Below are positions 11,487-49,208 of a DNA stretch of 64,000 nt, one piece after another (position 1 is the first letter of the stretch; each line of letters starts with the position of its first letter). The stretch covers positions 49,878-113,877 of the forward strand of contig JAWOFG010000182.1 in the NCBI GenBank assembly GCA_046482365.1. Reading direction: 5' to 3'. The notes beneath the pieces were generated by a model, which worked only from the letters and a program-made list of their open reading frames with translations, was not told where the DNA came from and made no database searches. The position numbers and the translations under genes were made by a program. The DNA comes from Pelovirga sp. (GTDB lineage: Bacteria > Desulfobacterota > Desulfuromonadia > Desulfuromonadales > Geopsychrobacteraceae).

Positions 11487-11566
11487 GCTTCCGATAAGAG
11501 CAAACCCGGGGCGATCCGGGGACGCAAAGCCACGGGTCCCACGCGGACAGCCGGGTTGCCGAAGAG
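11487..11566 (+). promoter_or_regulatory. GEMM-I class cyclic-dinucleotide riboswitch aptamer (A at the Vc2 G20-equivalent position)
   Basis: The sequence AAGAGCAAACCCGGG-GCGA-UCCGGGGACGCAAAGCCACGGGUCC...GGACAGCCGGGUUGCCGAAG contains the GCAAAC element, a P2 helix capped by a GNRA tetraloop, the invariant GGGACGCAAAGCC core and the AGC-GGGUU-CC 3-prime element of c-di-GMP-I riboswitches. Confidence 0.8.
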
Positions 11567-11610: not shown

Positions 11611-11673
11611 TCAGTCAGGTGGCTTTTGTTGCTTTAGGGCGAAGTGACCAACGATGATTGGGAGCGGACAGCA

Positions 11674-13383
11674 ATGGGCACAGCTCAGGATGACAGGTTC
11701 CAGCGCCGGATCAGACTGCAGAAGCTTCGTTGCCGTGCCCTGGAGTTCTGGTCAGGTGTTGGTTTACGTCCCCGCCTCATTGGTGCTTTTTTGCTGGTTT
11801 CCTTGATCCCTTTAGTGATCCTCTTTTTTGCCCAGTATCAAATTTCCAAACGTAACGTTCTTGACCAGATCGAATCAAACCTGATGCAAATTGCCGAGGG
11901 GCAACACCGGCGTATCGATATGGAGTTGCAGCGGCTTTTCGAACAACTGGAACTGGTAAGCAGTCGAACCCAGCTGCGTATCAGTTTAAAGGCTTATAAC
12001 CGGACTGGAGAGCATCACCACCTGGAGCTTTTGAACAGGATCATGGGCGACGCCCTTGCGTCAATGGAGCATTTTGTCGGTATCTGGATTCGTAATCCTG
12101 ATGATGATCTGGTGACGGGAGTTTTTAATGAGGATCCGGAGGCTCTCTGTTCTCTGACTCCTCCAGTTCAATCAGCAGAGTCGAAGCAACTGCAGCTGCA
12201 CTGGTTAGCCGAAGATAGCCCCTGTGTCTGGGTGAATGGACCCCTTTATCTTGAAGATCAAAACCTCGGCACTATTTATCTGCTGGTAACCATGACCGAC
12301 ATCGTTGCCGTGCTCGAAGATTTCCGTTGTGAACAATCCGGAATGGAAAATGTTTTGTTGCTGCCTGCTGATAATCAAGACATAAAAATTCTGGGGACCC
12401 TGTGTCCGGTCCAAGGGAAAGCTAATCAGGCTTTTTATCGTTTGTTAGAGTCGTCTGATTTCTATAGTACCTTGATTGCCGGTGGGGAAAATAGGTCACC
12501 CGTTTACCACCATGGCCACATCGCAGTAGTTCGACAACTCAGTTATGGCTTCGGTGATGTTCTGGTTCATGCCCATCCCGCTTCGTTGGATGGTGTTTTC
12601 TGGGGCCAGATGCGCTATCTGTTGGGGATGACCTTGTTCGCTCTGGTTTTGGTCATTGCGATGGCCCTTGCCTTGACGCGCATGATCGCCCGTCCACTAC
12701 GGGAACTGACCAGAGCGACTTCGATATTGCATGTTGGTCAGACTGACGTTCATATCAAAGAGCAGTTCTGGGGTGAATTTGCTGAACTGACACAGTCGTT
12801 CAACCGTGCCATGCGGGCGCTTTCGCGCCGCACTCGCGAGTTGAATCGGGAGGTTGAAGCGCGCCGGCGATCGCAGGAAAAACTGGTTGATCTGGCCAAT
12901 ACCGATACCCTGACCGGTTTGATTAATCGCCGGTATTTTATGGAAAAATTTCGTGAGGTGCTCAGCTTGCCATTCAGGGATCGCCAACCTGCAGCGCTTT
13001 TGTATATTGATCTGGACGATTTCAAACCCATCAATGACAGCATGGGACACGAAGCGGGCGACCTGGTGCTGCAGGTGGTGGCCGGAAGGATTCGTCACTT
13101 GTTGCGCGAAGGGGATCTCGCCGCGCGTATGGGTGGTGATGAGTTTGTGTTGTTGTTGATGGCGGATGGTTTGCATCCCCTCGATCCGGAGGTGATTGTG
13201 AAGCGGGTAGAAGAGCAACTAACCATGCCGATGACGATCAAGAATCAGGTCATTAGCGTCGGCTGCAGCATCGGTACTGTCAGGCTCTCACCCGGAGATG
13301 ATCCCCATGTGGTGCTCAACCGGGCAGATCAGGAAATGTACCGGGTCAAGCGCTCACACCGTATCAACAAGACTGAAAATTGA
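11674..13383 (+). CDS. Membrane sensor diguanylate cyclase (periplasmic sensor domain - HAMP - GGDEF)
   Basis: Two TM segments flank a sensor region of about 280 aa, followed by a HAMP linker and a GGDEF domain (FKPINDSMGHEAGD, RMGGDEFVLLL, RxxD I-site REGD). The start is ambiguous between GTG 11644 and ATG 11674; the latter follows GGGAG. Confidence 0.9.
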   Translation: MGTAQDDRFQRRIRLQKLRCRALEFWSGVGLRPRLIGAFLLVSLIPLVILFFAQYQISKRNVLDQIESNLMQIAEGQHRRIDMELQRLFEQLELVSSRTQLRISLKAYNRTGEHHHLELLNRIMGDALASMEHFVGIWIRNPDDDLVTGVFNEDPEALCSLTPPVQSAESKQLQLHWLAEDSPCVWVNGPLYLEDQNLGTIYLLVTMTDIVAVLEDFRCEQSGMENVLLLPADNQDIKILGTLCPVQGKANQAFYRLLESSDFYSTLIAGGENRSPVYHHGHIAVVRQLSYGFGDVLVHAHPASLDGVFWGQMRYLLGMTLFALVLVIAMALALTRMIARPLRELTRATSILHVGQTDVHIKEQFWGEFAELTQSFNRAMRALSRRTRELNREVEARRRSQEKLVDLANTDTLTGLINRRYFMEKFREVLSLPFRDRQPAALLYIDLDDFKPINDSMGHEAGDLVLQVVAGRIRHLLREGDLAARMGGDEFVLLLMADGLHPLDPEVIVKRVEEQLTMPMTIKNQVISVGCSIGTVRLSPGDDPHVVLNRADQEMYRVKRSHRINKTEN

Positions 13384-14977: not shown

Positions 14978-16068
14978 TGAAAAAGTGGATCGTCGCTACA
15001 GCTGTGGTGCTGGCCGCCATGGTTGCCATATTTGTCTGGTATCAACCCGCGGCAGAAGATGCCGATGTTGCACCGCCGGCGAAAACAGCCCCGGCACCAA
15101 TGGTTCAGGTGTTGCCGGTGCCGCTGAAAAGCTTTGCCGCCAGGCTGGAGCTGACCGGCAGCGTAGAACCGGCCGTCAGCGCTCAGCTGGCGCTGGCGGC
15201 CGAAGGGGTCGTCAAAAAGGTCCTGGTGCGTGAGGGGGATCGGGTGAGTACCGACGCCCTGCTCGCCACTATCGCTCGTAAAGGCGGGGTTACGGCGTTG
15301 ATTGATTCGTTAAGTCGTGAGCTTGCCCAGGAAGAGGACAACCTTGCGCGCTTGACCAAGCTGGTTGAGATCGGCGCCCTGCCGGCGGAACAACTGGAAC
15401 TGGCCGGCGTAGCGCGAGAAAAAATTCGGGTACAGCTGATTAATGCCCGTGAGGCAGCACGGGACTATGAACTGCGCGCACCCTGGTCGGGTATTGTCAG
15501 TCGGATTGAGGTAAAAGCGGGGGAGCTGGTCGCCCTGCGCACCCCTCTGGTTGAAATCTACGATCCCACCAGCCTGGTGATTCAAACCGCCGTTCCCGAG
15601 CGCTATGCCATGGCTATGACGATCGGTATGGCCACGGCGATCAAACTGGACGCCTATCCGGAGCAGATCTTCAGTGGCCGGATTGTGCAGGTGTTTCCTG
15701 AACTGGACGTGCGTCTACGTTCCCGCACTATCCGGATTGCCCTGGATCAGCCCCTTGCGTTGTTGCCGGGGATGTTTGCCCGTCTTGATATTATTCTGGA
15801 GTCGCTGGCGGATGTTCCCGGCGTTCCGGTGCAGGCCGTTCTGGCCAGTCCACAAGGCCCTGTCGTTTTTGTTGTTGAGGATGGCAAGGCGCTGCGCCGC
15901 AAGGTCGAGACGGGGATCGAGGATGACGGATTCATCCAGATCAAAAAAGGGGTCAAGGTTGGTGAAAGCCTGATTATCGCCGGTGCGGAAAAGCTCAAGG
16001 AGGGTGCTGCGGTGACGGTGCGCGCCGCAGGTAGCGGCCAGGCGCCAACGAAAGGCGCGCAAGAATGA
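14977..16068 (+). CDS. Efflux RND transporter periplasmic adaptor (MFP/HlyD family)
   Basis: Its start overlaps the TolC stop (TAATG). It has an N-terminal anchor, a coiled-coil hairpin and barrel-sandwich motifs. Confidence 0.9.
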   Translation: MKKWIVATAVVLAAMVAIFVWYQPAAEDADVAPPAKTAPAPMVQVLPVPLKSFAARLELTGSVEPAVSAQLALAAEGVVKKVLVREGDRVSTDALLATIARKGGVTALIDSLSRELAQEEDNLARLTKLVEIGALPAEQLELAGVAREKIRVQLINAREAARDYELRAPWSGIVSRIEVKAGELVALRTPLVEIYDPTSLVIQTAVPERYAMAMTIGMATAIKLDAYPEQIFSGRIVQVFPELDVRLRSRTIRIALDQPLALLPGMFARLDIILESLADVPGVPVQAVLASPQGPVVFVVEDGKALRRKVETGIEDDGFIQIKKGVKVGESLIIAGAEKLKEGAAVTVRAAGSGQAPTKGAQE

Positions 16069-19000
16069 ACCTGACCCGTTACGCTATTTATCGGCGGCTC
16101 GCCTGTGGTGCCATTGCTGCCTTGCTGGTGGTTCTGGGTTTGTATGCCCTGTCTTTGCTGCCGATGAACTATCTGCCTTCTATCACCTATCCCTTGATCA
16201 AGGTCGAGATTCGCTGGGATGGGGCGGCACCCACCGAGATCGAAAAAAATATCGCCCAGCCGGTTGAACGGGTGATTGCCACCGTGGATCGTCTTGAGCG
16301 GATGGAGTCCTCCTCCTTCGAGGGGCGCTACAGCCTTGACCTCCATTTCAAGTACGGTGCCGATGTCGATGTCGCTTTTCAGGATGTGACTGCGGCGCTG
16401 GCGCGGGTACGTAATCTTCCGGCGACGGTGGCACCGCCTTATGCGTTCAAGGCTGATCCGACCCAGATACCGGTGATGCAGCTGGCCATTTCGTCGGATC
16501 GCTGGGATCCCGTCACCCTGCGTGACTGGTCAGAAAACTGGTTTCTTGATCGGCTGATGGCGGTGCCTGGTGTCGCCGGAACCGATATTGTCGGGGGCCT
16601 GGTGCGCGAGGTTCAGATTTTACTGGATCAAGCGGCCATTGAAAAGCATCAGCTGGTACTTGATGACATCGTTGCCAAGGTTGCGGCCGAAAATATTGAG
16701 CTGACCGGCGGGCGGATCACGGTGGGGCCGAAAGAGATCATTGCCCGGACCATGGGCGAGGTAACCGGGATTGAGGAATTGGGACGCATTGTTGTTGCCG
16801 GTGATGGGCATCAGAGCGTTCTGCTGGCCGATGTGGCAACCATCGTTGATGATTATGCCGATAAGCGCGTCAGTGCCCGATTTAACGGCCGCGAAGCGGT
16901 ACGGATCTCGGTGCTCAAATCAGCCGAAGCCAATATTGTCGAGGTGGCTGATGCGGTCAATCGACAACTGGAGTTATTACGTCCCGTGCTGCCTGAGGGG
17001 ATTGAGCTGGGCTACGTTGAAGACCAGTCAGTTTATGTGCGTCAGGCCCTGACCGGGGTCAGCAGCGCGGCTATTGCGGCAGCAGTTCTGTTGATCATCG
17101 TTATCTACCTGTTTCTCGGCAGTCTGCGTCAGGTTGCCGTCATGTTGATTGCATTGCCTTTGACCCTGATCATCAATTTTGCCCTGATGAAGGTCGCCGG
17201 CTTCAGCCTCAATATTTTTTCCCTCGGCGGCCTGGTGGTGGCCATTGGTGTGGTGCTTGATAATTCCGTTGTTGTGCTGGAAAATATTACCCGTCTGCAT
17301 CGCGCTGCCCCAGGGGACGATATCCGTGCCACCAGCCTGACGGCCACGACGGAAGTCAGCCCGGCACTGATTGCTGCAACCCTGTCGTTTCTTGCCTTGT
17401 TTGTCCCGTTTCTCCTGGTGCCGGGGCTGACCAGCCTGTTGTTTCGCGAGTTGATTCTGGTGATTGCCGGTATCGTTGTGGTCAGCCTGCTGGTCGCTCT
17501 GACCATGACGCCGTTGCTCGCGACCCTCTTTATCCACAGCAGCCAGACACCGATCTCGGATAGCCTGTTTGAGCGGTTTTTTAACCGGGTCGCCGATGGT
17601 TACGCCTTTATCCTCGATTGGGCTGTCCGCTGGCGACTGCTGGTTATCGCTCTGTTTGTCGTTATTCTTGCAGGGGCGGTGTTGCTTTCCGGTCGACTCG
17701 GCGGTGAGTTTCTGCCCTTGATTGACGATGGTCAGGTAATGATCCGGCTTGATATGCCAACCGGGGCAGCGGTAGCACAAACGGATCGTACTTTGCAACG
17801 CATTGAAGAGCGTCTGGCGGAGGATCCGCTGATCGCGACCATCTTCACTTTTTCCGGTGGTCAGGTCATGGGAATGACAACCCGTGAAGTTGCCCACCGT
17901 GGAGAAATCTATATTCAGCTGATTCCCCGGAGCCGGCGCGATATTACGACCGGGGAATATGCCGCCGATTTACGCCGCCGCCTGAACAGTCTGCAGCCTC
18001 CCGGAGGGCGGGCAATAGCGCGCCAGGTACCAATCCGTGGAATTCCCGGCATTCGCTCTGCTGATGTCATTGTCAAGGTGCGGGGACCGGACCTGAACCG
18101 CCTGGCGGAGTTGACCGGCACGACCACGCGTCTGGTTGCTGCGGTTGAAGGTTTTGGCAATGTGCGCGGCGGTGTCGATCTGACCAAGCCGGAATTCCAG
18201 GTTCATATTGACCGCGCCAAGGCCGCTACCCTCGGGATGTCGGTGGCCGATGTCAGTCGCTCATTACGAACCCTGATTACCGGTGCCGTACCCAGTCGTT
18301 TGCGCGACGGGGAGCAGTATTACGATATCCGGGTGTTGTTGCCTCGGGACCAGCTGGCCGGGCGCCAGGATCTGGAAAATCTGCTGATCAGTTCCCGTGC
18401 CGGGGGGGCCATCCGCCTGCGGGATATTGCGACAGTTGATCTGCAGAGTGGGCCCCTGGAGGTTTTGCGTGAAGATCAGCTCAAGCAGATCACCGTTGAA
18501 GCTGATATTGCTGACAGCGATCTGGCCGGAGCGGTAAAGAGGCTCGAGGTGGCGCTAGGTGAGGCAGAGTTGCCACCCGGCTACTCCTATGATCTTGGCG
18601 GCAGCGCCGAGATGATGCTCGATATGAAACGGGCGGTGGTAGCGGTGCTGGTTTTTTCCCTGTTCTTTTCCTTTATTGTTCTGACGGTTCAGTTCAACAG
18701 CTTTAAACTGCCCCTGGTGATTCTGGCCAGTGTGCCGGTGTGTTTTGCCGGCGTCGTTTTGCTGATGTATCAACTGGCGCTGCCCCTTGGGGCAACAGTG
18801 ATTATCGGGATTCTGGTGGTGGTCGCGGCTACGGTTAATGATGGGGTCCTGCTGCTGACCTACGCTGGTGATATTGGCCAGCAAGAGCAGTTGCCGCCAC
18901 GAGCGGCGGTGGTCAAGGCGGCGCGGATCCGGTTCCGGCCACGCGTGATGACCACCGTTACCACCATCACCGGATTTGTCCCGCTGGCCCTGAACCTGAG

Positions 19001-19118
19001 TGACGGGGGGGATATGCTTCAACCGATGGCGGTTGCTGCTATTGGGGGATTGGGGATGGAGATGCTGGTAGCACTGTTCCTCATGCCCTGTCTGTATGTG
19101 ATGACAGCTAAACAGTAA
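16065..19118 (+). CDS. Efflux RND transporter permease subunit (AcrB/CzcA superfamily)
   Basis: A 1017-aa, 12-TM protein with RND architecture and two large periplasmic loops. It overlaps the adaptor gene by 4 nt. Confidence 0.95.
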   Translation: MNLTRYAIYRRLACGAIAALLVVLGLYALSLLPMNYLPSITYPLIKVEIRWDGAAPTEIEKNIAQPVERVIATVDRLERMESSSFEGRYSLDLHFKYGADVDVAFQDVTAALARVRNLPATVAPPYAFKADPTQIPVMQLAISSDRWDPVTLRDWSENWFLDRLMAVPGVAGTDIVGGLVREVQILLDQAAIEKHQLVLDDIVAKVAAENIELTGGRITVGPKEIIARTMGEVTGIEELGRIVVAGDGHQSVLLADVATIVDDYADKRVSARFNGREAVRISVLKSAEANIVEVADAVNRQLELLRPVLPEGIELGYVEDQSVYVRQALTGVSSAAIAAAVLLIIVIYLFLGSLRQVAVMLIALPLTLIINFALMKVAGFSLNIFSLGGLVVAIGVVLDNSVVVLENITRLHRAAPGDDIRATSLTATTEVSPALIAATLSFLALFVPFLLVPGLTSLLFRELILVIAGIVVVSLLVALTMTPLLATLFIHSSQTPISDSLFERFFNRVADGYAFILDWAVRWRLLVIALFVVILAGAVLLSGRLGGEFLPLIDDGQVMIRLDMPTGAAVAQTDRTLQRIEERLAEDPLIATIFTFSGGQVMGMTTREVAHRGEIYIQLIPRSRRDITTGEYAADLRRRLNSLQPPGGRAIARQVPIRGIPGIRSADVIVKVRGPDLNRLAELTGTTTRLVAAVEGFGNVRGGVDLTKPEFQVHIDRAKAATLGMSVADVSRSLRTLITGAVPSRLRDGEQYYDIRVLLPRDQLAGRQDLENLLISSRAGGAIRLRDIATVDLQSGPLEVLREDQLKQITVEADIADSDLAGAVKRLEVALGEAELPPGYSYDLGGSAEMMLDMKRAVVAVLVFSLFFSFIVLTVQFNSFKLPLVILASVPVCFAGVVLLMYQLALPLGATVIIGILVVVAATVNDGVLLLTYAGDIGQQEQLPPRAAVVKAARIRFRPRVMTTVTTITGFVPLALNLSDGGDMLQPMAVAAIGGLGMEMLVALFLMPCLYVMTAKQ

Positions 19119-30151: not shown

Positions 30152-30200
30152 CTTTGCGGGGTAAAGACTGATACTTAAATGACAATATTGCTAAGGGGTT

Positions 30201-31577
30201 ATGATGGTGGAACAAGCTAAAATACTGGTTGTTGACGATGAGCTTTTTTTTCGTCATCTCTACCGTGATCTCCTCGAAGATGCCGGTTATGCTGTGGTGA
30301 TCTGTGCTAATGGTGATGAAGCTGTCAGGTTACTGGAAGCAGAGCCCTTTGACCTGGTCTTGAGTGATGTGGTCATGCCCGGTCGCAGTGGTATCGACGT
30401 GCTCCGTTTCGCCAAGGGGTTGCCGTCACCTCCTGAAGTGGTGATGGTGACTGGTTACGCCAGTCTTGACTCTGCAATCGAATCTCTTAAAAACGGTGCC
30501 CGCGACTATCTGGTAAAACCTTTTAATCCGGAAGAGCTCAAACATCTGATCGCAACCTGTCTGGAGCAGCGGCGGCTACTGGCTGAAAATGCCCATCTTA
30601 AACGCCAGATCAACCTGTTTCAGACTGGCCAGACGCTTTCTTCCCTGATCGACCTGGAGTGCCTGATTCCTCAATCCCTTGAAGCCTTGATGCGTAAACT
30701 AGGTTCCCAATCGGGGTTCTCCTTTACCCTGGCAGACGATCAGGCAACCTATCTGACGGGTCTGAAAAAGATCCACGCAGGACATGCCGAGCAGTTAATC
30801 GAACTGCTGCTGCCGGAATTTTTTCAGGCGGCCGGTGTTGTTCAGCCATCAGGAGAATGTCTGGAGGGGTTGCGTAGCTTGAACAAACGACCTGAGCAGA
30901 TCTGGATGCTGCCATTGCGTGACGGAGATTTGTTGAAGGGTGGCATTCTGATCAGTGATGCAGTTTGTAACGATACCGATTTTTCTCCGGCTGACCTGCG
31001 CTACCTGTGCGATCAGATTGCCCTGGGGTTTGCCAACGCCTCGCGTTATCGTAATGCCCAGCAACTGATGTATTCCGATGACCTGACCGGTCTTTATAAT
31101 CATCGTTATCTTCAGATCGCTCTTAATCAGGAGATGATGCGCTCGCAGCGTTATGGTCTGAAATTTTCTGTTTTGTTTATGGATCTGGATCGTTTCAAGG
31201 AGATCAATGATCAGCACGGGCATCTAGCCGGCAGTGCGGCTCTGCAGGAAGTGGGGCGGTTGATGCGTGGTTGTGTTCGTGATGTCGACACCCTGTTTCG
31301 CTTTGGGGGCGATGAATTTGCTGCCCTGTTGGTTGAGACCGATCGACGCGCAGCACGAGTTGTTGCCGAGCGGATTCGCGGGCTGATTGAAAAGCATGTG
31401 TTTCTGGAAAAAGACAATCAGCCATCGCAGGTTACCGTCTCTATCGGCATTGCGACCTTCCCCGATGATGCCACCAACCAGGAACGCCTTCTCGGCCTCG
31501 CTGATCAGGCCATGTACGCCGGCAAGGAATCGCGTAACAGCATCTGCAGTGCCGTCGATCTGGTAGATACTCGTTAA
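30201..31577 (+). CDS. Response regulator receiver - linker/GAF-like - GGDEF cyclase; candidate Hypr GGDEF (GacA-like)
   Basis: The REC domain has an intact acceptor Asp (LVLSDVVMPGRSG). The GGDEF domain has FGGDEF and an RxxD I-site. The base-recognition motif reads FKEINDQHGHLAGS, with Ser345 (AGT 31233-31235) where canonical cyclases have Asp. Confidence 0.85.
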   Translation: MMVEQAKILVVDDELFFRHLYRDLLEDAGYAVVICANGDEAVRLLEAEPFDLVLSDVVMPGRSGIDVLRFAKGLPSPPEVVMVTGYASLDSAIESLKNGARDYLVKPFNPEELKHLIATCLEQRRLLAENAHLKRQINLFQTGQTLSSLIDLECLIPQSLEALMRKLGSQSGFSFTLADDQATYLTGLKKIHAGHAEQLIELLLPEFFQAAGVVQPSGECLEGLRSLNKRPEQIWMLPLRDGDLLKGGILISDAVCNDTDFSPADLRYLCDQIALGFANASRYRNAQQLMYSDDLTGLYNHRYLQIALNQEMMRSQRYGLKFSVLFMDLDRFKEINDQHGHLAGSAALQEVGRLMRGCVRDVDTLFRFGGDEFAALLVETDRRAARVVAERIRGLIEKHVFLEKDNQPSQVTVSIGIATFPDDATNQERLLGLADQAMYAGKESRNSICSAVDLVDTR

Positions 31578-35922: not shown

Positions 35923-38148
35923 ATGGCAGCAAAAATTATCTGGTCTGAAATTGATGAAGCACCGGCGTTGGCCACCTATGCATTTTTGCCCGTTGTTCAA
36001 GCCTTCACCAAAGGCTGTGACATAGAGGTGGAAACCCGTGATATTTCCCTGTCCGGTCGCGTCCTGTCACTTTTTCCGGAGCGCCTGACCGAAGCACAGC
36101 GGGTTGCTGACCATCTGGCAGAGTTGGGTGAATTGGTCAAGACCCCCGAAGCCAACGTTATCAAGCTGCCGAACATCAGTGCCTCGATTCCCCAGCTGCA
36201 GTCCTGTATCAAAGAACTTCAACAACAGGGCTATGATATTCCCAGTTATCCGGAAGAAGCGAAGAACGATGAGGATCGTAAGCTTCAGGAGCGTTTTTCC
36301 AAGGTGCTCGGCTCTGCGGTAAATCCGGTGCTGCGCGAAGGCAACTCGGATCGCCGTGCTGCAGCGTCGGTTAAAAAGTTTGCCCAGAAAAACCCCCACA
36401 AAATGATGCAGCCATGGCCGCCGGCCGGTGAGTCAAAGTGCCGTGTCGCCTTTATGGATGGTGGCGATTTCTATGAGTCAGAAAAATCAGTGACCATGGA
36501 TGCCGCCGATACCGTCAAGATTCAATTTGTTGATGAAGGTGGTAATACCAAGACCCTTAAAGAAGTCAAATTGCTGGCTGGTGAAGTTTTTGACAGCTCT
36601 ACCATGAATGTGCGCAAGCTGCGCGAGTTCTATGCTGCCACCGCCGCTGAGGCAAAAGCAAAGGGTGTGCTGTTGTCGCTGCACCTGAAGGCCACGATGA
36701 TGAAGATCTCTGATCCGATTCTGTTCGGCCACTGCGTCACGGTGTATTTCAAGGATGCCATTGATAAGCATGCTGCGACCCTAAAAGAGATCGGTGCCAG
36801 CCCCAACTACGGTATGGGCGATATTCTTTCCAAACTGGATAAACTGCCGGCAGAAAAAAAGGCAGAAATCGAAGCGGACATCAGCAAATGTTACGAGAGT
36901 GGCCCGGCTCTGGCCATGGTCGATTCCCGTAAAAACATTACCAATCTGCATGTTCCCAACGATGTTATTGTTGATGCCTCCATGCCTAACGTCGTCCGGG
37001 ATGGCGGCAAGATGTGGAATCTGCAGGACCAGCTGCAGGACACCATCGCTATGGTTCCTGATCGTTGTTATGCCACCATGTATGCAGAGATTGTCGATAA
37101 CGCCCGTGAAAACGGTCAGTTTGACCCCGCGACTATGGGTAGCGTAGCCAACGTTGGTTTAATGGCACAGAAAGCTGAAGAATACGGCTCTCATGACAAA
37201 ACCTTCGAAGCTCCCAGCAACGGAACCTTCCAGGTGGTTAATTCTGCCGGTCAGGTGCTGATGGAACAGAAGGTCGAAAAAGGCGATGTCTATCGTTCTT
37301 GCCAGACCAAGGATATTGCCATCAAGGACTGGGTCCGTCTTGCGGTTGAACGTTGCCGTGAGTCTGGTGAGCCGGTAGTTTTCTGGCTTGACGAAAAGCG
37401 TGGCCATGATCAGCAGATCATTGCCAAGGTCAACAAATACCTGCCCGACCATGACACCGCCGGTCTCGAGATCAAAGTGATGGCTCCGCGTGACGCCATG
37501 AAATTTTCGCTGGAGCGGATCCGCAAAGGCCTTAACACAATTTCGGCAACCGGAAACGTGTTGCGGGATTACCTGACCGACCTGTTCCCGATTCTGGAAC
37601 TGGGTACCAGTGCACGGATGCTGTCCATCGTGCCGCTGCTTGCTGGTGGTGGTCTGTTTGAGACTGGCGCCGGGGGATCAGCTCCCAAGCATGTTCAGCA
37701 GTTCCTGAAAGAAGGACATACCCGCTGGGATTCCTTGGGTGAGTATTGTGCTCTGGTGCCATCGCTGGAGCTGGTCGAAAAAAATTACAATAACAACAAG
37801 GCCAAAGTGCTGGCCGAAACGCTGGATACCGCAATCGGTACTTATCTTGAGAACCAGAAGCTGCCGTCACGGAAAGTCAACGAACTGGATAACCGTGGTA
37901 GCACTTTCTACCTGACCCTGTACTGGGCCCAGGCGCTGGCAGCACAGAATCAGGATCAGGATCTTAAGGCCCGTTTCACTCCAATCGCTAAGGAAATGAC
38001 CGACAACGCTGACAAGATCGATGCTGAATTGATCGCGGCTCAGGGTAAACCGGTTGATATCGGTGGTTACTTCCGTCCGGATCCGGTCAAGGCGGAAAAG
38101 GAAATGCGTCCAAGCGCAACCTTGAATGCTATCATTGATAAGATGTAG
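35923..38148 (+). CDS. icd: Isocitrate dehydrogenase, NADP-dependent, monomeric type
   Basis: A 741-aa protein whose N-terminus [24 protein letters not shown]...[11 protein letters not shown]...[12 protein letters not shown] matches monomeric IDH. Confidence 0.95.
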
Positions 38149-38158
38149 TTGTTTTTAG

Positions 38159-39190
<1,032 letters not shown>

Positions 39191-39210
39191 TCGGATTATT
39201 GCTCTTGATT

Positions 39211-39244
39211 CAGAGGGGCAGTCGTTCGGCTGCCCCTCTGTTTT
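39211..39244 (+). terminator. Intrinsic terminator after mdh
   Basis: CAGAGGGGCAG-loop-CTGCCCCTCTG followed by TTTT. Confidence 0.8.
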
Positions 39245-39547
39245 AGACTCCCCTCTGACAATTGAATAATGATGGTGCAGAGGTGCTGCAAGCAGGGAAG
39301 AGAAACACAGGCATAGTAAAAGTTGCCGGTAAACACCTGTTGCAGTGTTTTTTTTTGTTGTGAAAAGTTATTATTCGATTTCCAGAGTAGAGCCTAAACC
39401 GTTGCTTTTATAAAGGAAAGCATCAACGTACAGGATGCTTAAAGGTATGGATGTTTTTGCTGGCGTAGAGTCGCCGCTTATGTTAGCATTCCGCCGCTTT
39501 GAAAAGCTGTTTGTCGACAGTCACTATATTAAAGGAGAAAATCGTTC

Positions 39548-39742
39548 ATGAGCGCGAAAGCGGAAATTGAAATCATCGAAGCCTATTGTAAGGGGTGCAG
39601 CATCTGCGTAGAGTTCTGCCCTACAAAGGTCCTGGAGATGGATGCATTTGTTGTCAAGGTCGTTAACGCTGATGCCTGCATTGCATGTAATCAGTGTGAA
39701 TTACGTTGCCCTGACTTCGCCATTAAAGTTCACAAGCTGTAA
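39548..39742 (+). CDS. korD: 2-oxoglutarate:ferredoxin oxidoreductase delta subunit (2x[4Fe-4S] ferredoxin-like)
   Basis: A 64-aa protein with CKGCSICVEFCP and CIACNQCELRCP, immediately upstream of korA. Confidence 0.85.
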   Translation: MSAKAEIEIIEAYCKGCSICVEFCPTKVLEMDAFVVKVVNADACIACNQCELRCPDFAIKVHKL

Positions 39743-39762
39743 TAGCTAGAGGAGGTCGGTTC

Positions 39763-40902
39763 GTGGCAAAGAAAATTGCTCTTTTACAGGGGAATGAGGC
39801 TTGCGCCCAGGGCGCACTTTATGCCGGATGTAACTTTTTCGGCGGATACCCAATTACTCCTTCCACCGAAGTTGCTGAAGTCATGGCAGGCGAGCTTCCC
39901 AAGGTTGGTGGCAAGTTTATTCAGATGGAAGATGAAATCGGTGCTATGGCATCGATTATCGGCGCTTCCCTCGCTGGTTCAAAAGCGTTGACCGCAACTT
40001 CAGGCCCCGGTGTTTCCCTTAAACAGGAACTGATCGGTTATGCCTGTATTGCTGAAGTTCCCTGCGTTATCATTAACGTTATGCGTGGTGGCCCTTCAAC
40101 CGGTATGCCGACCGGTCCTGGCCAATCAGATGTGATGCAGGCCCGCTGGGGAACCCACGGTGACCACGCTGCTATCGCGCTGTGTCCCTCTTCCTGTCAG
40201 GAAATTTTCTCTGAAACCGTACGTGCTTTTAATCTGGCAGAAAAATATCGCATGCCGGTGCAGGTCCTGTTTGATGAGATCGTTGGTCACATGCGTGAGC
40301 GTATTGTTTTCCCGGAACCGGGTGAGCTCGAAGTCATTGACCGGACAGCACCATCTGTTCCACCGGAAAAATACAAGCCGTTTGACACTTCTTTCGGCGA
40401 TGTTCCTCCGCTGGCGGCCTTTGGCTCTGATTATCGTTTCCATGTGACCGGCCTGAACAAGGCCGAAGATGGTTTTCCGACCACCAAGGCAGAGCTGGTA
40501 GATGCAGAAGAGCGCCGCCAGATTCGCAAAGTTGAGTGTCCGGAATCCCGCGCTGATATTGAGTTGAACGAGGAGTATCTGACTGAAGATGCCGAGGTGA
40601 TCGTTTTCGCTTACGGCTCGACCGCTCGTTCAGCCCGTTATGCGGTGAATGAACTGCGTGAGCAGGGCATTAAAGCTGGGTTATTCCGTCCTATCACTCT
40701 CTGGCCTTTCCCGGAAAAGCGAGTTGCCCAACTGGGTGAGCAGGCCAAAGCGATGGTCGTCGCTGAAATGAACCTCGGACAAATGGTTTTCGAGGTTGAG
40801 CGGATTGTCAAAAATACATGTAAACTAGGTCTGGTTACCCGCGTCGATGGTGATCCACTCACCCCGACCCAAATTATTGACCAGGTTAAGGAGGTCCTCT
40901 AA
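39763..40902 (+). CDS. korA: 2-oxoglutarate:ferredoxin oxidoreductase alpha subunit
   Basis: LQGNEACAQGALYAGCNFFGGYPITPSTE... shows 2-oxoacid:ferredoxin oxidoreductase alpha-subunit character; 379 aa. Confidence 0.9.
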   Translation: MAKKIALLQGNEACAQGALYAGCNFFGGYPITPSTEVAEVMAGELPKVGGKFIQMEDEIGAMASIIGASLAGSKALTATSGPGVSLKQELIGYACIAEVPCVIINVMRGGPSTGMPTGPGQSDVMQARWGTHGDHAAIALCPSSCQEIFSETVRAFNLAEKYRMPVQVLFDEIVGHMRERIVFPEPGELEVIDRTAPSVPPEKYKPFDTSFGDVPPLAAFGSDYRFHVTGLNKAEDGFPTTKAELVDAEERRQIRKVECPESRADIELNEEYLTEDAEVIVFAYGSTARSARYAVNELREQGIKAGLFRPITLWPFPEKRVAQLGEQAKAMVVAEMNLGQMVFEVERIVKNTCKLGLVTRVDGDPLTPTQIIDQVKEVL

Positions 40903-41718
40903 ATGGCTTACGATTACGAAAAATCAATCCGCCCAGGTAAGCTGCCTCATATCTGGTGCCCCGGTTGTGGTCATGGCATTGTCATGAAAGGCCTGATTCG
41001 GGCCATGGATAGCTGCGGTCTGGAAAAAAACAATACAGCAATTGTTTCAGGTATCGGTTGCGCCAGCCGGATGCCTGGTTATCTGGATTTTAACACCTTG
41101 CATACCGCCCATGGTCGTGCTGCCGCTTTCGCGACCGGCGTCAAGATGGCAAAGCCGGAGATGACGGTTATCTGCTGTGGTGGCGACGGAGACGGCGCAG
41201 CGATCGGTGGTAATCACTTCATTCATGCCTGTCGGCGTAATATCGATATGACTTACGTGTTGTTGAATAACTACATCTACGGTATGACCGGTGGTCAGTT
41301 CTCTTCATCCACTCCGACCGGACATCTGGCGTCGACAACTCCCTACGGTAATCCTGATCCTGCTTTTGATCTGGCAAAACTGGCGATCGGTGCCGGCGCG
41401 ACATTTGTTGCCCGGACCACAGCTTTTCATGCCACCCAGATCGACAAATTGATTGCTGAAGGGATCAAGCACAAGGGTATGGCAGTGATCGAAGTCCTCG
41501 ATGATTGCCCGACAACCTACGGTCGCCGTAACAAGTTCCGCAGTGTTGTGGATATGATGAAGCGTCTGAAGGATATCGCGGTTCCGGTGACGGCAGCAGC
41601 AAAGATGACTCCCGAGCAGCTGGAAGGCAAGACGCTGACCGGCGTACTGCACAAGGAAGACCGTCCGGAATACTGTGAAAACTACGCAAAAATCATTGCG
41701 CGTGTACAAGGCGCCTGA
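40903..41718 (+). CDS. korB: 2-oxoglutarate:ferredoxin oxidoreductase beta subunit (TPP-binding)
   Basis: WCPGCGHG and GGDGDGAAIGGNH TPP motifs. Its start abuts the korA stop. Confidence 0.9.
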   Translation: MAYDYEKSIRPGKLPHIWCPGCGHGIVMKGLIRAMDSCGLEKNNTAIVSGIGCASRMPGYLDFNTLHTAHGRAAAFATGVKMAKPEMTVICCGGDGDGAAIGGNHFIHACRRNIDMTYVLLNNYIYGMTGGQFSSSTPTGHLASTTPYGNPDPAFDLAKLAIGAGATFVARTTAFHATQIDKLIAEGIKHKGMAVIEVLDDCPTTYGRRNKFRSVVDMMKRLKDIAVPVTAAAKMTPEQLEGKTLTGVLHKEDRPEYCENYAKIIARVQGA

Positions 41719-41743
41719 TCACATCCATAAGGAGACGAGAATC

Positions 41744-42295
41744 ATGGCAGAAAGATATGAACTTCGCTTTTCCGGTGCGGGTGGTCAGGGTCTGATCACT
41801 GCCGGAATTATATTGGCTGAAGCCGCTTCGATCATCGAAGGGCGTCATGCCGTACAGTCACAAAGTTATGGCCCGGAAGCCCGAGGTGGTGCTTCCAAGT
41901 CGGAAGTTATTATCGGCGAAGGGCCGATCGACTATCCCAAGGCAACCGTGGTTGATGCTTGTCTGGCGATGACCCAGGAAGCTGCCGATAAATATGCTGT
42001 TGGTATTAAAGATGGTGGCGTTCTGCTGGTCGACAGTGATTTTGTCAAAAATCCGCCACAGGGTAATTACAAGGTTTACAGTCTGCCGATTATGCGGACC
42101 GCTAAGGTCGATGTTGGTCGTGAAATTGTCGCCAACGTTATTGCCCTTGGGGCAATGATTGCCTTGACCGATGTTGTTAAACGTGAGTCAGGCGAGCAGG
42201 CTGTTCTGGCGAAAGTACCGGAGGCCTTCAAGGACCTGAACAAAAAGGCCTACAGCCTTGGTTTTGATAAAATGAAAGAAATTCTGGCTGGTTGA
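41744..42295 (+). CDS. korC: 2-oxoglutarate:ferredoxin oxidoreductase gamma subunit
   Basis: RFSGAGGQGLITAGIILAEA...SYGPEARGG is the gamma-subunit motif. The start was chosen at ATG 41744 after an AAGGAGA RBS. Confidence 0.9.
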   Translation: MAERYELRFSGAGGQGLITAGIILAEAASIIEGRHAVQSQSYGPEARGGASKSEVIIGEGPIDYPKATVVDACLAMTQEAADKYAVGIKDGGVLLVDSDFVKNPPQGNYKVYSLPIMRTAKVDVGREIVANVIALGAMIALTDVVKRESGEQAVLAKVPEAFKDLNKKAYSLGFDKMKEILAG

Positions 42296-42312
42296 TTTGC
42301 TGGATAGTTATA

Positions 42313-42359
42313 AAAAAAGCAAGGCCCGGCGTAATAATACCGGGCCTTGCTTTTTTTTA
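42313..42359 (+). terminator. Intrinsic terminator after korC
   Basis: AAAAAAAGCAAGGCCCGG-loop-CCGGGCCTTGCTTTTTTTT; a strong GC stem with flanking A and T tracts. Confidence 0.85.
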
Positions 42360-42442
42360 TTGATTTGATTTGTTAAAGTCTTTGTAACGAGTATCCTTAC
42401 AGGATGAATTTGCTAAAAACTCTGATAGAAAGGTTGATAAGG

Positions 42443-43123
42443 ATGAAAAAACTGATTATTGCAGTATTGATTATGTTGTTTGTTGCAACTAGCGGTTATG
42501 CAACAACATGGGAAACAGAAGCTCAGAAGGTGGGCTATGCCATCGGCATGAACATTGGTATGAACATGAAAATGCAGGAACTGGATATCGACCCCGAGCA
42601 GGTGTCGGCAGGCCTGGTGGCCGCCTTTAAGGGCGAACCCACCCTGATGGACGAAGATCAGATGGCGCAGACACTGATGGCTTTTCAACAACAGATGCAA
42701 GCACGCGACATGGAAAAGTCGGCTGCTGAAGCAACAGTAAATGCCGTCGCGTCACAAAAATATCTTGAAGAGAACCGCAAAAAGAAGGGTGTTGTGACAA
42801 CGGATAGTGGATTGCAATATCGGGTTTTGTCAGAAGGCAAGGGGGCCTCACCCACGGCTGATTCGACGGTTGATGTTCACTATCGCGGTACCCTGGTAGA
42901 TGGAACCGAGTTCGACAGTTCTTACTCACGGGGTGAGCCCGCCACCTTCCCGGTTGCTAATGTGATCCCCGGCTGGACCGAAGCTCTCCAGCTGATGAAG
43001 GAAGGGGCGAAGTGGGAAATCGTCATACCTGCTGAACTGGCCTATGCCGATCAGGGTGCCCCACCCGTCATCCCACCAGGTTCTGCTCTTATCTTTGAGG
43101 TTGAACTGTTGAAGGTTCATTAG
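42443..43123 (+). CDS. FKBP-type peptidyl-prolyl cis-trans isomerase (FkpA/Mip-like, secreted)
   Basis: Has a signal peptide from MKKLIIAVLIML, a Mip-type N-terminal dimerisation helix and a C-terminal FKBP domain (VHYRGTLVDGTEFDSS...IPGW...GSALIFEVELL). Confidence 0.9.
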   Translation: MKKLIIAVLIMLFVATSGYATTWETEAQKVGYAIGMNIGMNMKMQELDIDPEQVSAGLVAAFKGEPTLMDEDQMAQTLMAFQQQMQARDMEKSAAEATVNAVASQKYLEENRKKKGVVTTDSGLQYRVLSEGKGASPTADSTVDVHYRGTLVDGTEFDSSYSRGEPATFPVANVIPGWTEALQLMKEGAKWEIVIPAELAYADQGAPPVIPPGSALIFEVELLKVH

Positions 43124-43396
43124 TCCACCTCCGACTCATTCTCCTCGGGCAATAAGCGCCCGATGAGAATGAGTGCAGCGCCAAGTAACAGTAATGTTTC
43201 AAACATGATAATGACCTCTCTGGTAGTACAGATCCAAAGCTTTACCTTGTGGATATCAAGATAACTTCTCAGTGTGTCACAATATTTCACACCGATGGTG
43301 TAGCTGGCCTCGCACTATTAAATTAAATACAAGAAGCTATTACCCTTGATTGTTTTTGTTGAAACAGGAACTGCACGTTGACTTCAATTTAAAAAA

Positions 43397-43413
43397 TCGT
43401 ATACAGTATGCAA
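43397..43413. promoter_or_regulatory. Palindrome TCGTATAC-A-GTATGCAA (15/17 identical to the icd site) overlapping the -10 of a TTGACT promoter upstream of acnB
   Basis: TTGACT lies at 43378-43383 and TATACA at 43400-43405, a 16-nt spacer. The palindrome covers the -10 element. Confidence 0.5.
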
Positions 43414-43509
43414 TTGCTGAACACTAAAACCCTTGTTTAACCTTGATTTTTAGAGTGAAAAATCAGGATCAAAAAACCAATTTTCCAACCTGATAACTGG
43501 AGGAGAGAG

Positions 43510-46118: not shown

Positions 46119-46730
46119 TTACTTGAACAGTTTTTTCACCTGGTAATGTACCAGGACGATCAGCAGCATCAAAAAGACGGCCAGTCCGAAACGGGCACCC
46201 ATGGTCTGTGCCTGCCGCAGACTGCTGCCGCCGATATAGCCAAGACCCGGATAACAGATACCCCAGAGGATCGAACTGATCAGGATATAGCTGATCGCTG
46301 ATCGCCCGGACATGTGTGAAAGACCCGCGATAAATGGAACAATCCCGCGGATGGGACCCAGAAACCGTGCAAAAAACAAGCTTTTGCCACCATGAGTGAG
46401 GAAGAATTTCTGGGCATAGCGGACCATCAGTCGCCGGCGGCGAAAAAAACGCATGCGCAAAAAGATGTCACCATAGCGTTTTCCCAACCACAGGCTGAGC
46501 AGATCACCGAACAGGGCCCCAAGACCTGCAAGCAGGATCAGGGTTGCCAGATTACCTTTGCCGGCAACAACAAGAAAACCAGCCAGAACGATGATAGTGC
46601 TGCCGGGGACGAGCAAACCGGCAACCGGTAGTGATTCTGCGAAGGCGACGAAAAAGATCAGAAAATGGTATTTGCTGCCGGCAGGAACAAACATCAGGAT
46701 TTGCTGGATCCAGGCTTCCATCAGCGCCAA
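46119..46730 (-). CDS. DedA-family membrane protein
   Basis: A 203-aa multi-TM protein with the SNARE-associated/DedA pattern (FAESLPVAGLLVPG..., FFARFLGPIRGIVPFIAG). Confidence 0.85.
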   Translation of the reverse strand: MALMEAWIQQILMFVPAGSKYHFLIFFVAFAESLPVAGLLVPGSTIIVLAGFLVVAGKGNLATLILLAGLGALFGDLLSLWLGKRYGDIFLRMRFFRRRRLMVRYAQKFFLTHGGKSLFFARFLGPIRGIVPFIAGLSHMSGRSAISYILISSILWGICYPGLGYIGGSSLRQAQTMGARFGLAVFLMLLIVLVHYQVKKLFK

Positions 46731-49166: not shown

Positions 49167-49203
49167 TGGGTAGTGGGTAGTGGGTAGTGGGTAGTGGGTA
49201 GTG
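49162..49203 (+). repeat. Perfect heptanucleotide tandem repeat (GGTAGTG)x6 overlapping the kinase stop codon
   Basis: Read directly: GGTAGTG repeated six times and followed by GGGGGCC. The TAG stop at 49164-49166 lies in unit 1. Seven GGG runs spaced by 4 nt (the six-unit repeat plus the flanking GGGGG) fit the G3N4 G-quadruplex pattern. Confidence 0.9.
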
Positions 49204-49208
49204 GGGGG

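What the first reader, a model, noticed from the sequence alone, without database searches (positions are those of the whole stretch)
30201..31577. REC-GGDEF protein carrying the Hypr (cGAMP synthase) specificity substitution
In GGDEF cyclases the guanine base is read by the Asn and Asp of the motif N-D-x-x-G-H-x-x-G-D (PleD N335 and D344). Here the motif is INDQHGHLAGS, so the Asp position is Ser345 (codon AGT, 31233-31235). A Ser or Thr at this position defines the hybrid promiscuous (Hypr) GGDEF enzymes such as Geobacter GacA (Ser348), which produce 3',3'-cGAMP. GacA also has a REC-GGDEF architecture of about the same length. The other two GGDEF proteins in the window (11674-13383 and 49861-52053) keep the canonical Asp. 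Together with the A-variant GEMM-I riboswitch 19 kb away, this points to an active cGAMP signalling pathway in this organism.
Basis: partly seen in the sequence, partly recalled or inferred. Interest (0 to 1): 0.65.

Follow-up and report, generated by a model that had tools for sequence, protein, structure and literature searches.

The report
GacA-type cGAMP synthase (Hypr GGDEF) ortholog
This gene encodes a response-regulator cyclase whose active site carries the serine that lets known relatives in Geobacter make the signal 3',3'-cGAMP instead of only c-di-GMP; it is the positional ortholog of that known enzyme, so it is a correct call but an ordinary one.

Summary
ORF 30201-31577 (+) encodes a 458-aa protein with the motif INDQHGHLAGS. 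Ser345 (AGT, 31233-31235) aligns without gaps to Ser348 of the crystallised G. metallireducens GacA Hypr GGDEF domain (PDB 6d9m) and to the guanine-reading Asp of PleD and WspR. 6d9m is the best match among all PDB sequences.

The other reported Hypr features are present: GGDEF rather than GGEEF, Asn336, a non-Arg cross-dimer residue (His301, versus Tyr304 in GacA), the RxxD I-site plus Arg391, and an intact receiver domain. The other two GGDEF proteins in the window keep Asp and Arg.

The gene sits between comEC and hisS-aspS. That order is kept in 20 Desulfuromonadia loci, and gacA (GSU1658) lies directly upstream of hisS (GSU1659) in G. sulfurreducens. Ser345 is invariant in 120 homologs.

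Two refinements. The ~160-aa "linker" is a GAF fold that Pfam misses, so the architecture is REC-GAF-GGDEF. The riboswitch at 11490-11564 does have A at position 20, but its leader looks like an OFF switch controlling a canonical diguanylate cyclase.

Verdict: a new member of a known enzyme family, with no biochemical test here. Interest is low to moderate.

The parts
30201..31577 (+). gacA-like gene: REC-GAF-GGDEF protein of 458 aa. The start is ATG 30201 or the next ATG at 30204; the Shine-Dalgarno-like AAGGGG lies at 30193-30198.
30222..30551 (+). Receiver (REC) domain, residues 8-117. It has the acidic pocket D12/D13, phospho-acceptor D56 (30366-30368), T84 and K106.
   Evidence: Pfam; residues conserved in orthologs
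30654..31073 (+). Cryptic GAF-fold domain (about residues 152-291), ending in a long helix that runs into the GGDEF domain. A linker helix at residues 131-148 precedes it.
   Evidence: AF2 domain model with pLDDT 87 and pTM 0.81. All 50 listed of 82 Foldseek PDB hits at E<=0.001 are GAF domains or GAF-containing photosensory modules. No Pfam hit even at E<=10.
31071..31535 (+). GGDEF catalytic domain, residues 291-445, of the Hypr type.
   Evidence: Pfam. Best PDB sequence hit is 6d9m, 158.5 bits; the next-best single GGDEF-domain hit is 5euh at 111.5 bits (WspR domain 101, PleD 79).
31101..31103 (+). His301 (CAT): cross-dimer base-stacking position. It is Tyr304 in Gmet GacA and Arg in 94% of canonical cyclases.
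   Evidence: Family distribution: H 109, Y 6, N 4, T 1, Q 1.
31206..31208 (+). Asn336 (AAT): sugar-edge contact to the purine base (GacA Asn339, PleD N335).
31233..31235 (+). Ser345 (AGT): specificity residue (GacA Ser348; PleD Asp344).
31278..31289 (+). Primary inhibitory site R360-D-V-D363 (RxxD), five residues before GGDEF.
31305..31319 (+). GGDEF motif, residues 369-373. Asp371 is the Mg2+ ligand and Glu372 the cross-dimer general base.
   Evidence: residue roles from PMC6456294
31371..31373 (+). Arg391 (CGG): second I-site arginine, equivalent to GsGacA R393.
11490..11564 (+). Context, same pathway: GEMM-I aptamer with A at position 20 and A at position 47. A promoter-like TTGACA (11442-11447) / TATAGT (11464-11469) lies upstream.
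   Evidence: Rfam (64.4 bits, E 6.6e-13); sequence; conserved in L083 and L084
11576..11609 (+). Context: intrinsic terminator (11-bp interrupted stem plus T7) after the aptamer. Its 5' strand CUUCGG(U) can instead pair with the P1 3' strand GCCGAAG (11558-11564).
11674..13383 (+). Context: the gene controlled by the riboswitch. It encodes a GGDEF protein with a hydrophobic, probably membrane-spanning N-terminal segment, canonical Asp (NDSMGHEAGD) and Arg (NRR).

Best explanation
The gene encodes the ortholog of Geobacter GacA, a hybrid promiscuous (Hypr) GGDEF dinucleotide cyclase.

Inferred mechanism, by homology to GacA. The protein acts as a homodimer, and each GGDEF half-site binds one purine NTP. 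[quoted passage not shown] Asp371 of GGDEF holds the Mg2+-triphosphate, and Glu372 of the partner subunit deprotonates the 3'-OH. His301 of the partner subunit stacks on the base in place of the guanine-favouring Arg of canonical cyclases. With ATP in one half-site and GTP in the other, the main product in vivo would be 3',3'-cGAMP, with c-di-GMP and c-di-AMP as side products.

Inferred regulation. Output is set by an orphan receiver domain (D56), a GAF-fold middle domain, and allosteric inhibition at the RxxD/Arg391 I-site, which binds c-di-GMP in GacA. The cGAMP would be read by A20-type GEMM-I riboswitches such as the one at 11490-11564.

Shown here: all the sequence features, the fold of the middle domain, the conservation and the synteny. 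Inferred: the product, the regulators and the riboswitch ligand.
For: - **Closest structure.** The best match among 177,635 PDB sequences is 6d9m, the T4L fusion of the Gmet_1914 Hypr GGDEF domain: 158.5 bits and about 50% identity, versus 111.5 bits for the next-best single GGDEF domain (5euh), 101 for WspR and 79 for PleD. The alignment is gapless and places S345 on S348 and N336 on N339.
- **Hypr signature (PMC6456294).** The paper gives Ser/Thr348, GGDE[F/Y] exclusively, and a non-Arg cross-dimer residue. All three are met here, whereas the window's two other GGDEF domains have Asp plus Arg.
- **Conservation.** S345, N336, G369-E372, R360, D363 and R391 are invariant in 121/121 family sequences (F373 in 120, Tyr in one), and the same residues are kept in all 20 syntenic loci.
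- **Synteny.** The order comEC - gene - hisS - aspS is kept in 20 Desulfuromonadia loci, down to 42% identity. In G. sulfurreducens hisS is GSU1659, next to gacA GSU1658. A published primer 'on the 5' side of hisS' encodes DISLDR, which equals Gmet GacA residues 308-313.
- **Length and architecture.** The GGDEF domain starts at residue 291, versus 294 in Gmet_1914. The PDB depositors name Gmet_1914 'response receiver sensor diguanylate cyclase, GAF domain-containing', and the middle domain here folds as a GAF.
- **Riboswitch.** An A20 GEMM-I aptamer is in the same window. Replacement of G20 by A is the defining change of cGAMP-binding GEMM-Ib (PMC6140456).
Against: - No enzymatic data exist for this protein or for any member of its His301 clade.
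- Ser alone is not sufficient. D-to-S mutants of canonical cyclases were inactive in four of five cases or still made only c-di-GMP, and two natural Ser enzymes with Arg at the cross-dimer position make more c-di-GMP (PMC6456294).
- His is not among the residues reported as tested (Y, S, A, Q, R). If protonated, it could mimic Arg.
- Full-length G. sulfurreducens GacA could not be retrieved, so full-length identity and a reciprocal best hit were not computed.
- The GGDEF domain in the full-length AF2 model has only moderate confidence: pLDDT is 40-86, and below 50 at residues 360-371.
Confidence: 0.8

Rival explanations
1. It is a Ser-variant GGDEF enzyme that in vivo makes mainly c-di-GMP. 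It would be functionally a diguanylate cyclase, like the Ser-containing Cabther_A1065 and Ddes1475, because His301 (partly cationic) favours guanine as Arg does.
For: The cross-dimer residue shifts the product ratio: Y304R skews GacA toward c-di-GMP, and natural Ser enzymes with Arg make more c-di-GMP. His301 differs from Tyr304 of the characterised GacA and is not among the residues reported as tested.
Against: His is not Arg. Close syntenic orthologs alternate His, Tyr and Gln at this site, which suggests functional equivalence with the Tyr and Gln forms that make mostly cGAMP. Ser345 with GGDEF is under absolute conservation, which would be unnecessary for a GTP-only enzyme. An A20 aptamer is present.
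Confidence: 0.13
2. It is a dual-output enzyme whose product switches with the state of the receiver or GAF domain, for example cGAMP in one state and c-di-GMP in the other. In that case 'cGAMP synthase' describes only part of its role.
For: Hypr enzymes are promiscuous in vitro. The GacA kinetic model invokes asymmetric activation and communication of Rec state across the dimer. Bd0367 is described as dual-functional in a commentary title (PMC9302825). The REC phospho-acceptor residues and a GAF fold are conserved here.
Against: In G. sulfurreducens, deleting gacA changed cGAMP reporter levels but not c-di-GMP reporter levels, and the D52A receiver mutant behaved like wild type.
Confidence: 0.05
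3. It is a catalytically inactive GGDEF protein that serves only as a cyclic-dinucleotide receptor through its I-site.
For: The I-site residues are intact.
Against: All catalytic residues (GGDEF, Asn336, Glu372, the DxLTGL motif, Lys/Arg contacts) are intact and invariant. The closest relative is an active enzyme.
Confidence: 0.02

Closest known systems
GacA (GSU1658 of Geobacter sulfurreducens; Gmet_1914 of G. metallireducens, PDB 6d9m/5VS9), the founding Hypr GGDEF GMP-AMP cyclase
   Same: Same length class (458 vs about 459-460 aa), with the GGDEF domain starting within 3 residues of the same position. Shared residues: Ser at the specificity position, Asn339 equivalent, GGDEF rather than GGEEF, a non-Arg cross-dimer residue, RxxD plus the R393-equivalent I-site, and an N-terminal orphan receiver domain. 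The depositors' name for Gmet_1914 includes a GAF domain. The gene lies directly upstream of hisS. About 50% identity over the GGDEF domain.
   Different: The cross-dimer residue is His301 instead of Tyr304. The organism belongs to a different Desulfuromonadia lineage: its nearest named relatives are Pelovirga (69%), Desulfuromusa (about 64%) and Malonomonas (56%). Full-length identity to GacA was not measured.
Bd0367 of Bdellovibrio bacteriovorus (REC-GGDEF Hypr enzyme, Ser214)
   Same: Ser specificity residue, receiver domain and conserved I-site. S-to-D converts it to a c-di-GMP synthase, which is the same experiment proposed here.
   Different: Judging from the position of its specificity Ser (S214 vs S345), it is much shorter and probably lacks the roughly 160-aa GAF-fold middle domain. 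It is not syntenic. It controls gliding motility rather than riboswitch regulons.
GacB (MXAN_2643 of Myxococcus xanthus), a GAF-GGDEF Hypr enzyme activated by cAMP
   Same: A Hypr GGDEF domain preceded by a GAF domain, and inhibited by c-di-GMP at the I-site.
   Different: It has no receiver domain, and its GAF is recognisable by sequence and binds cAMP. The GAF fold here is invisible to Pfam and its ligand, if any, is unknown.
PleD of Caulobacter crescentus (REC-REC-GGDEF diguanylate cyclase)
   Same: Overall response-regulator cyclase design, the N335-equivalent Asn, the RxxD I-site and similar length. It gives the top Foldseek hits for the full-length model.
   Different: PleD has Asp344, GGEEF and Arg at the cross-dimer position, and a second pseudo-receiver domain where this protein has a GAF fold. 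The NCBIfam PleD equivalog score of 202.6 is far below its cut-off of 474.

Membership tests
Hypr GGDEF (GacA-type GMP-AMP cyclase) | Ser or Thr at the position of GacA Ser348 / PleD Asp344 | tested here: met
   Ser345 aligns gaplessly to S348 of 6d9m and to the Asp of PleD and WspR. It is invariant in 121/121 homologs.
Hypr GGDEF (GacA-type GMP-AMP cyclase) | GGDE[F/Y] motif, never GGEEF ('Goldilocks' rule, PMC6456294) | tested here: met
   G369-G-D-E-F373. [quoted passage not shown]
Hypr GGDEF (GacA-type GMP-AMP cyclase) | Cross-dimer stacking residue is not the canonical Arg (Tyr304 in GacA; Y/S/A/Q give mostly cGAMP) | tested here: met
   His301 in 'LYNHRY', versus 'NRR' in both other GGDEF proteins of the window and in PleD and WspR. 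His itself is not among the residues reported as tested.
Hypr GGDEF (GacA-type GMP-AMP cyclase) | Intact catalytic core: Asn339 equivalent, Mg-binding Asp374 and general-base Glu375 equivalents | tested here: met
   N336, D371 and E372 are present and invariant.
Hypr GGDEF (GacA-type GMP-AMP cyclase) | Allosteric I-site (RxxD plus the R393 equivalent) | tested here: met
   R360-D-V-D363 and R391 are invariant in the family.
Hypr GGDEF (GacA-type GMP-AMP cyclase) | GacA subfamily architecture: N-terminal receiver domain, long middle region, C-terminal GGDEF, with no adjacent histidine kinase | tested here: met
   REC at 8-117, GAF fold at about 152-291, GGDEF at 291-445. The neighbours are comEC and hisS.
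Hypr GGDEF (GacA-type GMP-AMP cyclase) | Orthology to GSU1658/Gmet_1914: closest characterised relative and conserved gene position | tested here: met
   6d9m is the top PDB hit by 47 bits over the next GGDEF domain. The gene lies upstream of hisS-aspS in 20 loci. GSU1659 is hisS, and a 5'-flank primer encodes a GacA peptide. A full-length reciprocal best hit against GSU1658 was not done because the sequence was not retrievable.
Hypr GGDEF (GacA-type GMP-AMP cyclase) | Produces 3',3'-cGAMP from ATP + GTP, and S-to-D restores a c-di-GMP-only enzyme | not testable with these tools
   This needs enzyme assays or LC-MS.
GEMM-Ib (cGAMP-sensing subclass of c-di-GMP-I riboswitches) | GEMM-I fold with A instead of G at position 20 (Vc2 numbering), with A47 and C92 retained | tested here: met
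   The aptamer at 11490-11564 scores 64.4 bits. The nucleotide 5' of the GCAAACC stem is A, and the nucleotide after GACGC is A. Mapping of position 20 uses the Vc2 sequence from my own knowledge plus PMC6140456. The same bases are present in two relatives.
GEMM-Ib (cGAMP-sensing subclass of c-di-GMP-I riboswitches) | Selective binding of cGAMP over c-di-GMP | not testable with these tools
   A20 variants may be selective or bispecific. In-line probing or ITC is needed.
c-di-GMP-I-GGC variant (Rfam RF03167) | G at position 47 (consensus GACGC-G-AA) and G at position 20 | tested here: not met
   The window has A at both positions, although RF03167 is the best-scoring clan member at 64.4 bits against a gathering score of 59. 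Reading 'GGC' as the bases at positions 20/47/92 is my inference from the consensus.
Canonical diguanylate cyclase (PleD family) | Asp at the PleD-344 position, Arg at the cross-dimer position, and a score above the NCBIfam PleD equivalog cut-off | tested here: not met
   Ser345 and His301. NF007135 scores 202.6 bits against a cut-off of 474.

The most novel reading that the evidence does not exclude
The A20 GEMM-I riboswitch at 11490-11564 may be a cGAMP-responsive OFF switch that shuts down a canonical diguanylate cyclase (11674-13383), while c-di-GMP inhibits the GacA ortholog through its I-site. Together these would form a mutual-inhibition (toggle) circuit between the cGAMP and c-di-GMP networks. 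The clade-specific His301 could add a pH- or state-dependent bias to the product ratio. Neither a cGAMP riboswitch that represses a cyclase gene nor a His-type Hypr enzyme appears in the papers read here.
Probability: 0.15. Interest if true: 0.55.

Novelty: new member of a known kind. Interest (0 to 1): 0.25.

Why it matters
Automated annotation calls this protein, and all 120 of its closest database relatives, a "diguanylate cyclase". NCBIfam has no Hypr model. As a result, cGAMP signalling is invisible in genome annotations of Desulfuromonadia outside Geobacter.

Recognising it as the positional gacA ortholog extends the Hypr-cGAMP pathway to the lineage around Pelovirga, Desulfuromusa and Malonomonas. 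In Geobacter that pathway controls extracellular metal-oxide respiration. It also gives three practical leads:
- A natural His variant at the cross-dimer specificity position.
- A GAF-fold sensor domain that Pfam fails to detect.
- A riboswitch that links the pathway to a c-di-GMP synthase.

None of this changes current understanding of how the enzyme family works.

Tried and rejected
- **Second homolog search.** I queried with the Gmet_1914 GGDEF domain to fetch full-length Geobacter GacA. Only fragments of 277 aa or less came back (best full-coverage hits about 70% identical; one 102-aa fragment is 96% identical), so full-length identity and a reciprocal best hit could not be computed.
- **Founding paper.** Hallberg et al. 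2016, PNAS (PMC4763787) is not held. The defining features were taken from the 2019 eLife paper and later papers instead.
- **Source organism.** The window protein is not on record as an exact sequence. The genome-contig scan found no locus above 69% identity. The organism is therefore known only as a Desulfuromonadia bacterium 92% identical at this protein to the MAGs GCA_018400995.1 and GCA_018399135.1.
- **Middle domain by sequence.** A Pfam scan of residues 125-292 at E<=10 found nothing. A separate structure prediction was needed.
- **Whole-protein fold search.** Foldseek with the full-length model is dominated by multi-domain matches with rmsd above 14 Å, and it gives no residue-level superposition. 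It was not used to argue residue homology, which rests on the gapless sequence alignments.
- **Sequencing error or pseudogene.** Rejected. AGT needs two substitutions to become an Asp codon, the ORF is full length, and Ser is invariant in relatives.
- **Other pathway parts in the window.** I looked for a cGAMP-specific HD-GYP phosphodiesterase or a partner histidine kinase near the gene and found none. The small HD protein at 46721-47299 has no GYP motif, and the kinase at 47616-49166 lies 16 kb away beside a different REC-PAS-GGDEF-EAL gene.
- **Further aptamers.** An E-value-threshold Rfam scan found no additional GEMM aptamers in the window.
Full report
**1. The observation**

The ORF at 30201-31577 (+) is real. 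It is the only long frame at this place and translates to 458 residues. An AAGGGG Shine-Dalgarno-like element lies at 30193-30198. The spacing fits the second ATG at 30204 slightly better than the first.

Pfam finds a receiver domain at residues 8-117 and a GGDEF domain at 291-445. The two other GGDEF proteins in the window read NDSMGHEAGD and NDSLGHPIGD, so both keep the Asp.

**2. Is Ser345 homologous to the specificity residue?**

A phmmer search of all PDB sequences puts 6d9m first. That entry is the T4-lysozyme fusion of the G. metallireducens Gmet_1914 (GacA) Hypr GGDEF domain, and it scores 158.5 bits for the domain. The next-best single GGDEF domain (5euh) scores 111.5 bits; the GGDEF domains of WspR and PleD score 101 and 79 bits.

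The alignment to 6d9m has no gap from the DxLTGL motif to beyond GGDEF. Counting from the construct start (residue 294) reproduces the published Asn339 and Ser348, which fall on Asn336 and Ser345 here. A MAFFT alignment of this domain with Gmet_1914, PleD, WspR and the window's two other GGDEF domains places Ser/Ser/Asp/Asp/Asp/Asp in one column, with no indel nearby.

I rest this on the gapless sequence alignments. The full-length AlphaFold model has only moderate confidence in the GGDEF domain, and the Foldseek output gives no residue mapping.

**3. The rest of the Hypr signature**

The 2019 eLife paper on GacA (PMC6456294) defines Hypr domains by three features:
- Ser348 in place of Asp.
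- Exclusive use of GGDE[F/Y], because Ser combined with GGEEF is inactive (the 'Goldilocks' rule).
- Replacement of a cross-dimer Arg, conserved in 94% of diguanylate cyclases, by another residue (Tyr304 in GacA).

Enzymes with Tyr, Ser, Ala or Gln at that last site make mostly cGAMP; those with Arg make more c-di-GMP.

Here the motif is GGDEF (369-373) and the cross-dimer residue is His301 (LYNHRY). Both other GGDEF proteins in the window, like PleD and WspR, have NRR. Also present are the Mg-binding Asp371, the general base Glu372, the RxxD I-site (R360-D363) and Arg391, which is equivalent to GsGacA R393, whose mutation relieves c-di-GMP inhibition. The receiver residues D12, D13, D56, T84 and K106 are intact.

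**4. Conservation and chance**

Ser/Thr at this position is reported for only 0.17% of GGDEF domains (PMC9140294). In the 120 best database homologs plus the query, Ser345, Asn336, G369-E372, R360, D363 and R391 are invariant; Phe373 is Tyr in one sequence. Position 301 is His in 109, Tyr in 6, Asn in 4, Thr in 1 and Gln in 1, and it is never Arg.

In 82 related loci, 61 of the 62 proteins with Ser at this position have Asp at the centre of GGDEF; the exception reads Gly. Of the 15 with Asp at this position, 14 have GGEEF. That sample is biased by the search patterns used, but it reproduces the published rule.

**5. Orthology and organism**

The nearest named relatives are all Desulfuromonadia:

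| Relative | Identity |
|---|---|
| Pelovirga | 69% |
| Desulfuromusa | about 64% |
| Malonomonas | 56% |
| Geopsychrobacter | 56-58% |

The closest sequences (92%) come from two unnamed NCBI MAGs. Their gene order is M1 peptidase - epimerase - FBPase - comEC - this gene - hisS - aspS - DUF4398 - IDH, the same as in the window.

The core order comEC - gene - hisS - aspS is kept in 20 loci, down to 42% identity. In G. sulfurreducens hisS is GSU1659, the neighbour by locus tag of gacA GSU1658. A published sense primer 'on the 5' side of hisS GSU1659' (TGACATCTCGCTGGACCGGG) encodes DISLDR, which is identical to residues 308-313 of the Gmet GacA domain. That places gacA directly upstream of hisS on the same strand. 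The window gene is therefore the positional ortholog of gacA.

I could not retrieve full-length GSU1658, so full-length identity is not reported.

**6. Architecture**

The roughly 170 residues between REC and GGDEF give no Pfam hit, even at E<=10. A separate AlphaFold model of residues 130-292 is confident (pLDDT 87, pTM 0.81). All 50 listed of its 82 Foldseek PDB matches at E<=0.001 are GAF domains or GAF-containing photosensory modules, with E values down to 1e-6 and TM about 0.55-0.66. They include the REC-GAF 'dual sensor histidine kinase' 6oap and the cAMP-binding GAF of Lcd1.

The protein is thus REC-GAF-GGDEF. This agrees with the PDB depositors' name for Gmet_1914, 'response receiver sensor diguanylate cyclase, GAF domain-containing'. 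No histidine kinase is adjacent, matching the orphan receiver described for GacA homologs (bioRxiv 10.1101/600031).

**7. The riboswitch context**

Rfam finds one aptamer, at 11490-11564 (+), scoring 64.4 bits with E = 6.6e-13. The best-scoring clan member is the c-di-GMP-I-GGC variant. However, the RNA has A where that consensus and canonical GEMM-I have G20 (the base 5' of the GCAAACC stem). It also has A where the GGC variant has G (the base after GACGC, position 47). By the published criterion of G20 replaced by A (PMC6140456), it is a GEMM-Ib-type aptamer. The same paper warns that such RNAs can be bispecific.

The aptamer is preceded by a good promoter-like pair (TTGACA, 16 nt, TATAGT). 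It is followed by a strong terminator at 11576-11609 and then by a GGDEF gene with canonical Asp and Arg. This arrangement, including A20, is kept in two metagenomic relatives whose GGDEF protein is 83% and 78% identical.

The aptamer and the terminator do not overlap. The P1 3' strand (GCCGAAG) can instead pair with the terminator's 5' strand (CUUCGGU), and that hairpin is the predicted fold of the nascent transcript up to 11590. Enforcing the aptamer leaves the full terminator intact. This suggests an OFF switch, unlike the ON switches of the Geobacter cGAMP regulon. It is a thermodynamic inference only.

**8. Verdict**

What is shown: the sequence features, the fold of the middle domain, the conservation and the synteny. 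What is inferred: that the enzyme's main product is 3',3'-cGAMP, that c-di-GMP inhibits it, and that the nearby riboswitch reads cGAMP.

The main uncertainty is His301, which is not among the residues reported as tested at a position known to tune the product ratio.

The enzyme family, its signature residue, its structure, its riboswitch effectors and its physiology are already described, and this gene is the ortholog. It is a new member of a known kind, of modest interest. Its main value is as an annotation correction and as a source of a natural His variant and a possible cGAMP/c-di-GMP cross-regulatory circuit.

Noticed in passing
window 11442-11673 (+): The leader of the GGDEF gene 11674-13383 has a promoter-like TTGACA/TATAGT, an A20 GEMM-I aptamer, then a terminator that does not overlap the aptamer. 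The P1 3' strand (GCCGAAG) can pair with the terminator's 5' strand (CUUCGGU) as an antiterminator. This suggests a ligand-OFF switch on a canonical diguanylate cyclase, the opposite logic to the Geobacter cGAMP ON switches.
   Followed up: partly
window 11490-11564 (+); L083 2188-2262; L084 2192-2266: Rfam assigns the aptamer to the c-di-GMP-I-GGC variant model (RF03167), just above its gathering score. All three copies nevertheless have A, not G, at positions 20 and 47. The clan competition therefore mislabels a GEMM-Ib-like RNA.
   Followed up: partly
window 30654-31073 (+): The middle domain of the GacA-like protein is a GAF fold that Pfam does not detect at any threshold. The GacA papers read here describe the protein simply as Rec-GGDEF. 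Its ligand, if any, is unknown.
   Followed up: yes
window 13613-19118 (+): An RND efflux set (outer-membrane factor, HlyD-type adaptor, AcrB-type pump) follows the riboswitch-controlled GGDEF gene on the same strand after a 230-nt gap. Whether it is co-transcribed was not examined.
   Followed up: no
window 47616-52053 and 54986-56221: A second signalling cluster lies here: a HAMP histidine kinase (47616-49166, +), a convergent REC-PAS-GGDEF-EAL protein (49861-52053, -) with canonical Asp, and a REC-HDOD protein (54986-56221, -).
   Followed up: no
window 56305-57681 (-): A 458-aa protein combines an N-terminal ArsR-type HTH with a HipA-like C-terminal kinase domain. It may be a fused toxin-regulator.
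   Followed up: no
window 35923-46044 (+): A run of TCA-cycle genes (monomeric isocitrate dehydrogenase, malate dehydrogenase, three-subunit 2-oxoacid:ferredoxin oxidoreductase, aconitase B) lies downstream of hisS-aspS. Cytochrome bd oxidase (4930-7598) and a flavocytochrome c sulfide dehydrogenase pair (9555-11397) lie upstream. This fits a chromosomal housekeeping region of an anaerobic Desulfuromonadia bacterium.
   Followed up: no
L020, L026, L028, L030, L033, L043-L051 (Desulfuromonadales/Geobacteraceae MAGs): A second family of GGDEF proteins carries Ser at the specificity position. They match from about residue 130 onward (no receiver domain matched) and have Gly, Ser or Ala at the cross-dimer site. 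Some have RxxC/RxxS instead of RxxD. They may be additional Hypr paralogs in these genomes.
   Followed up: no
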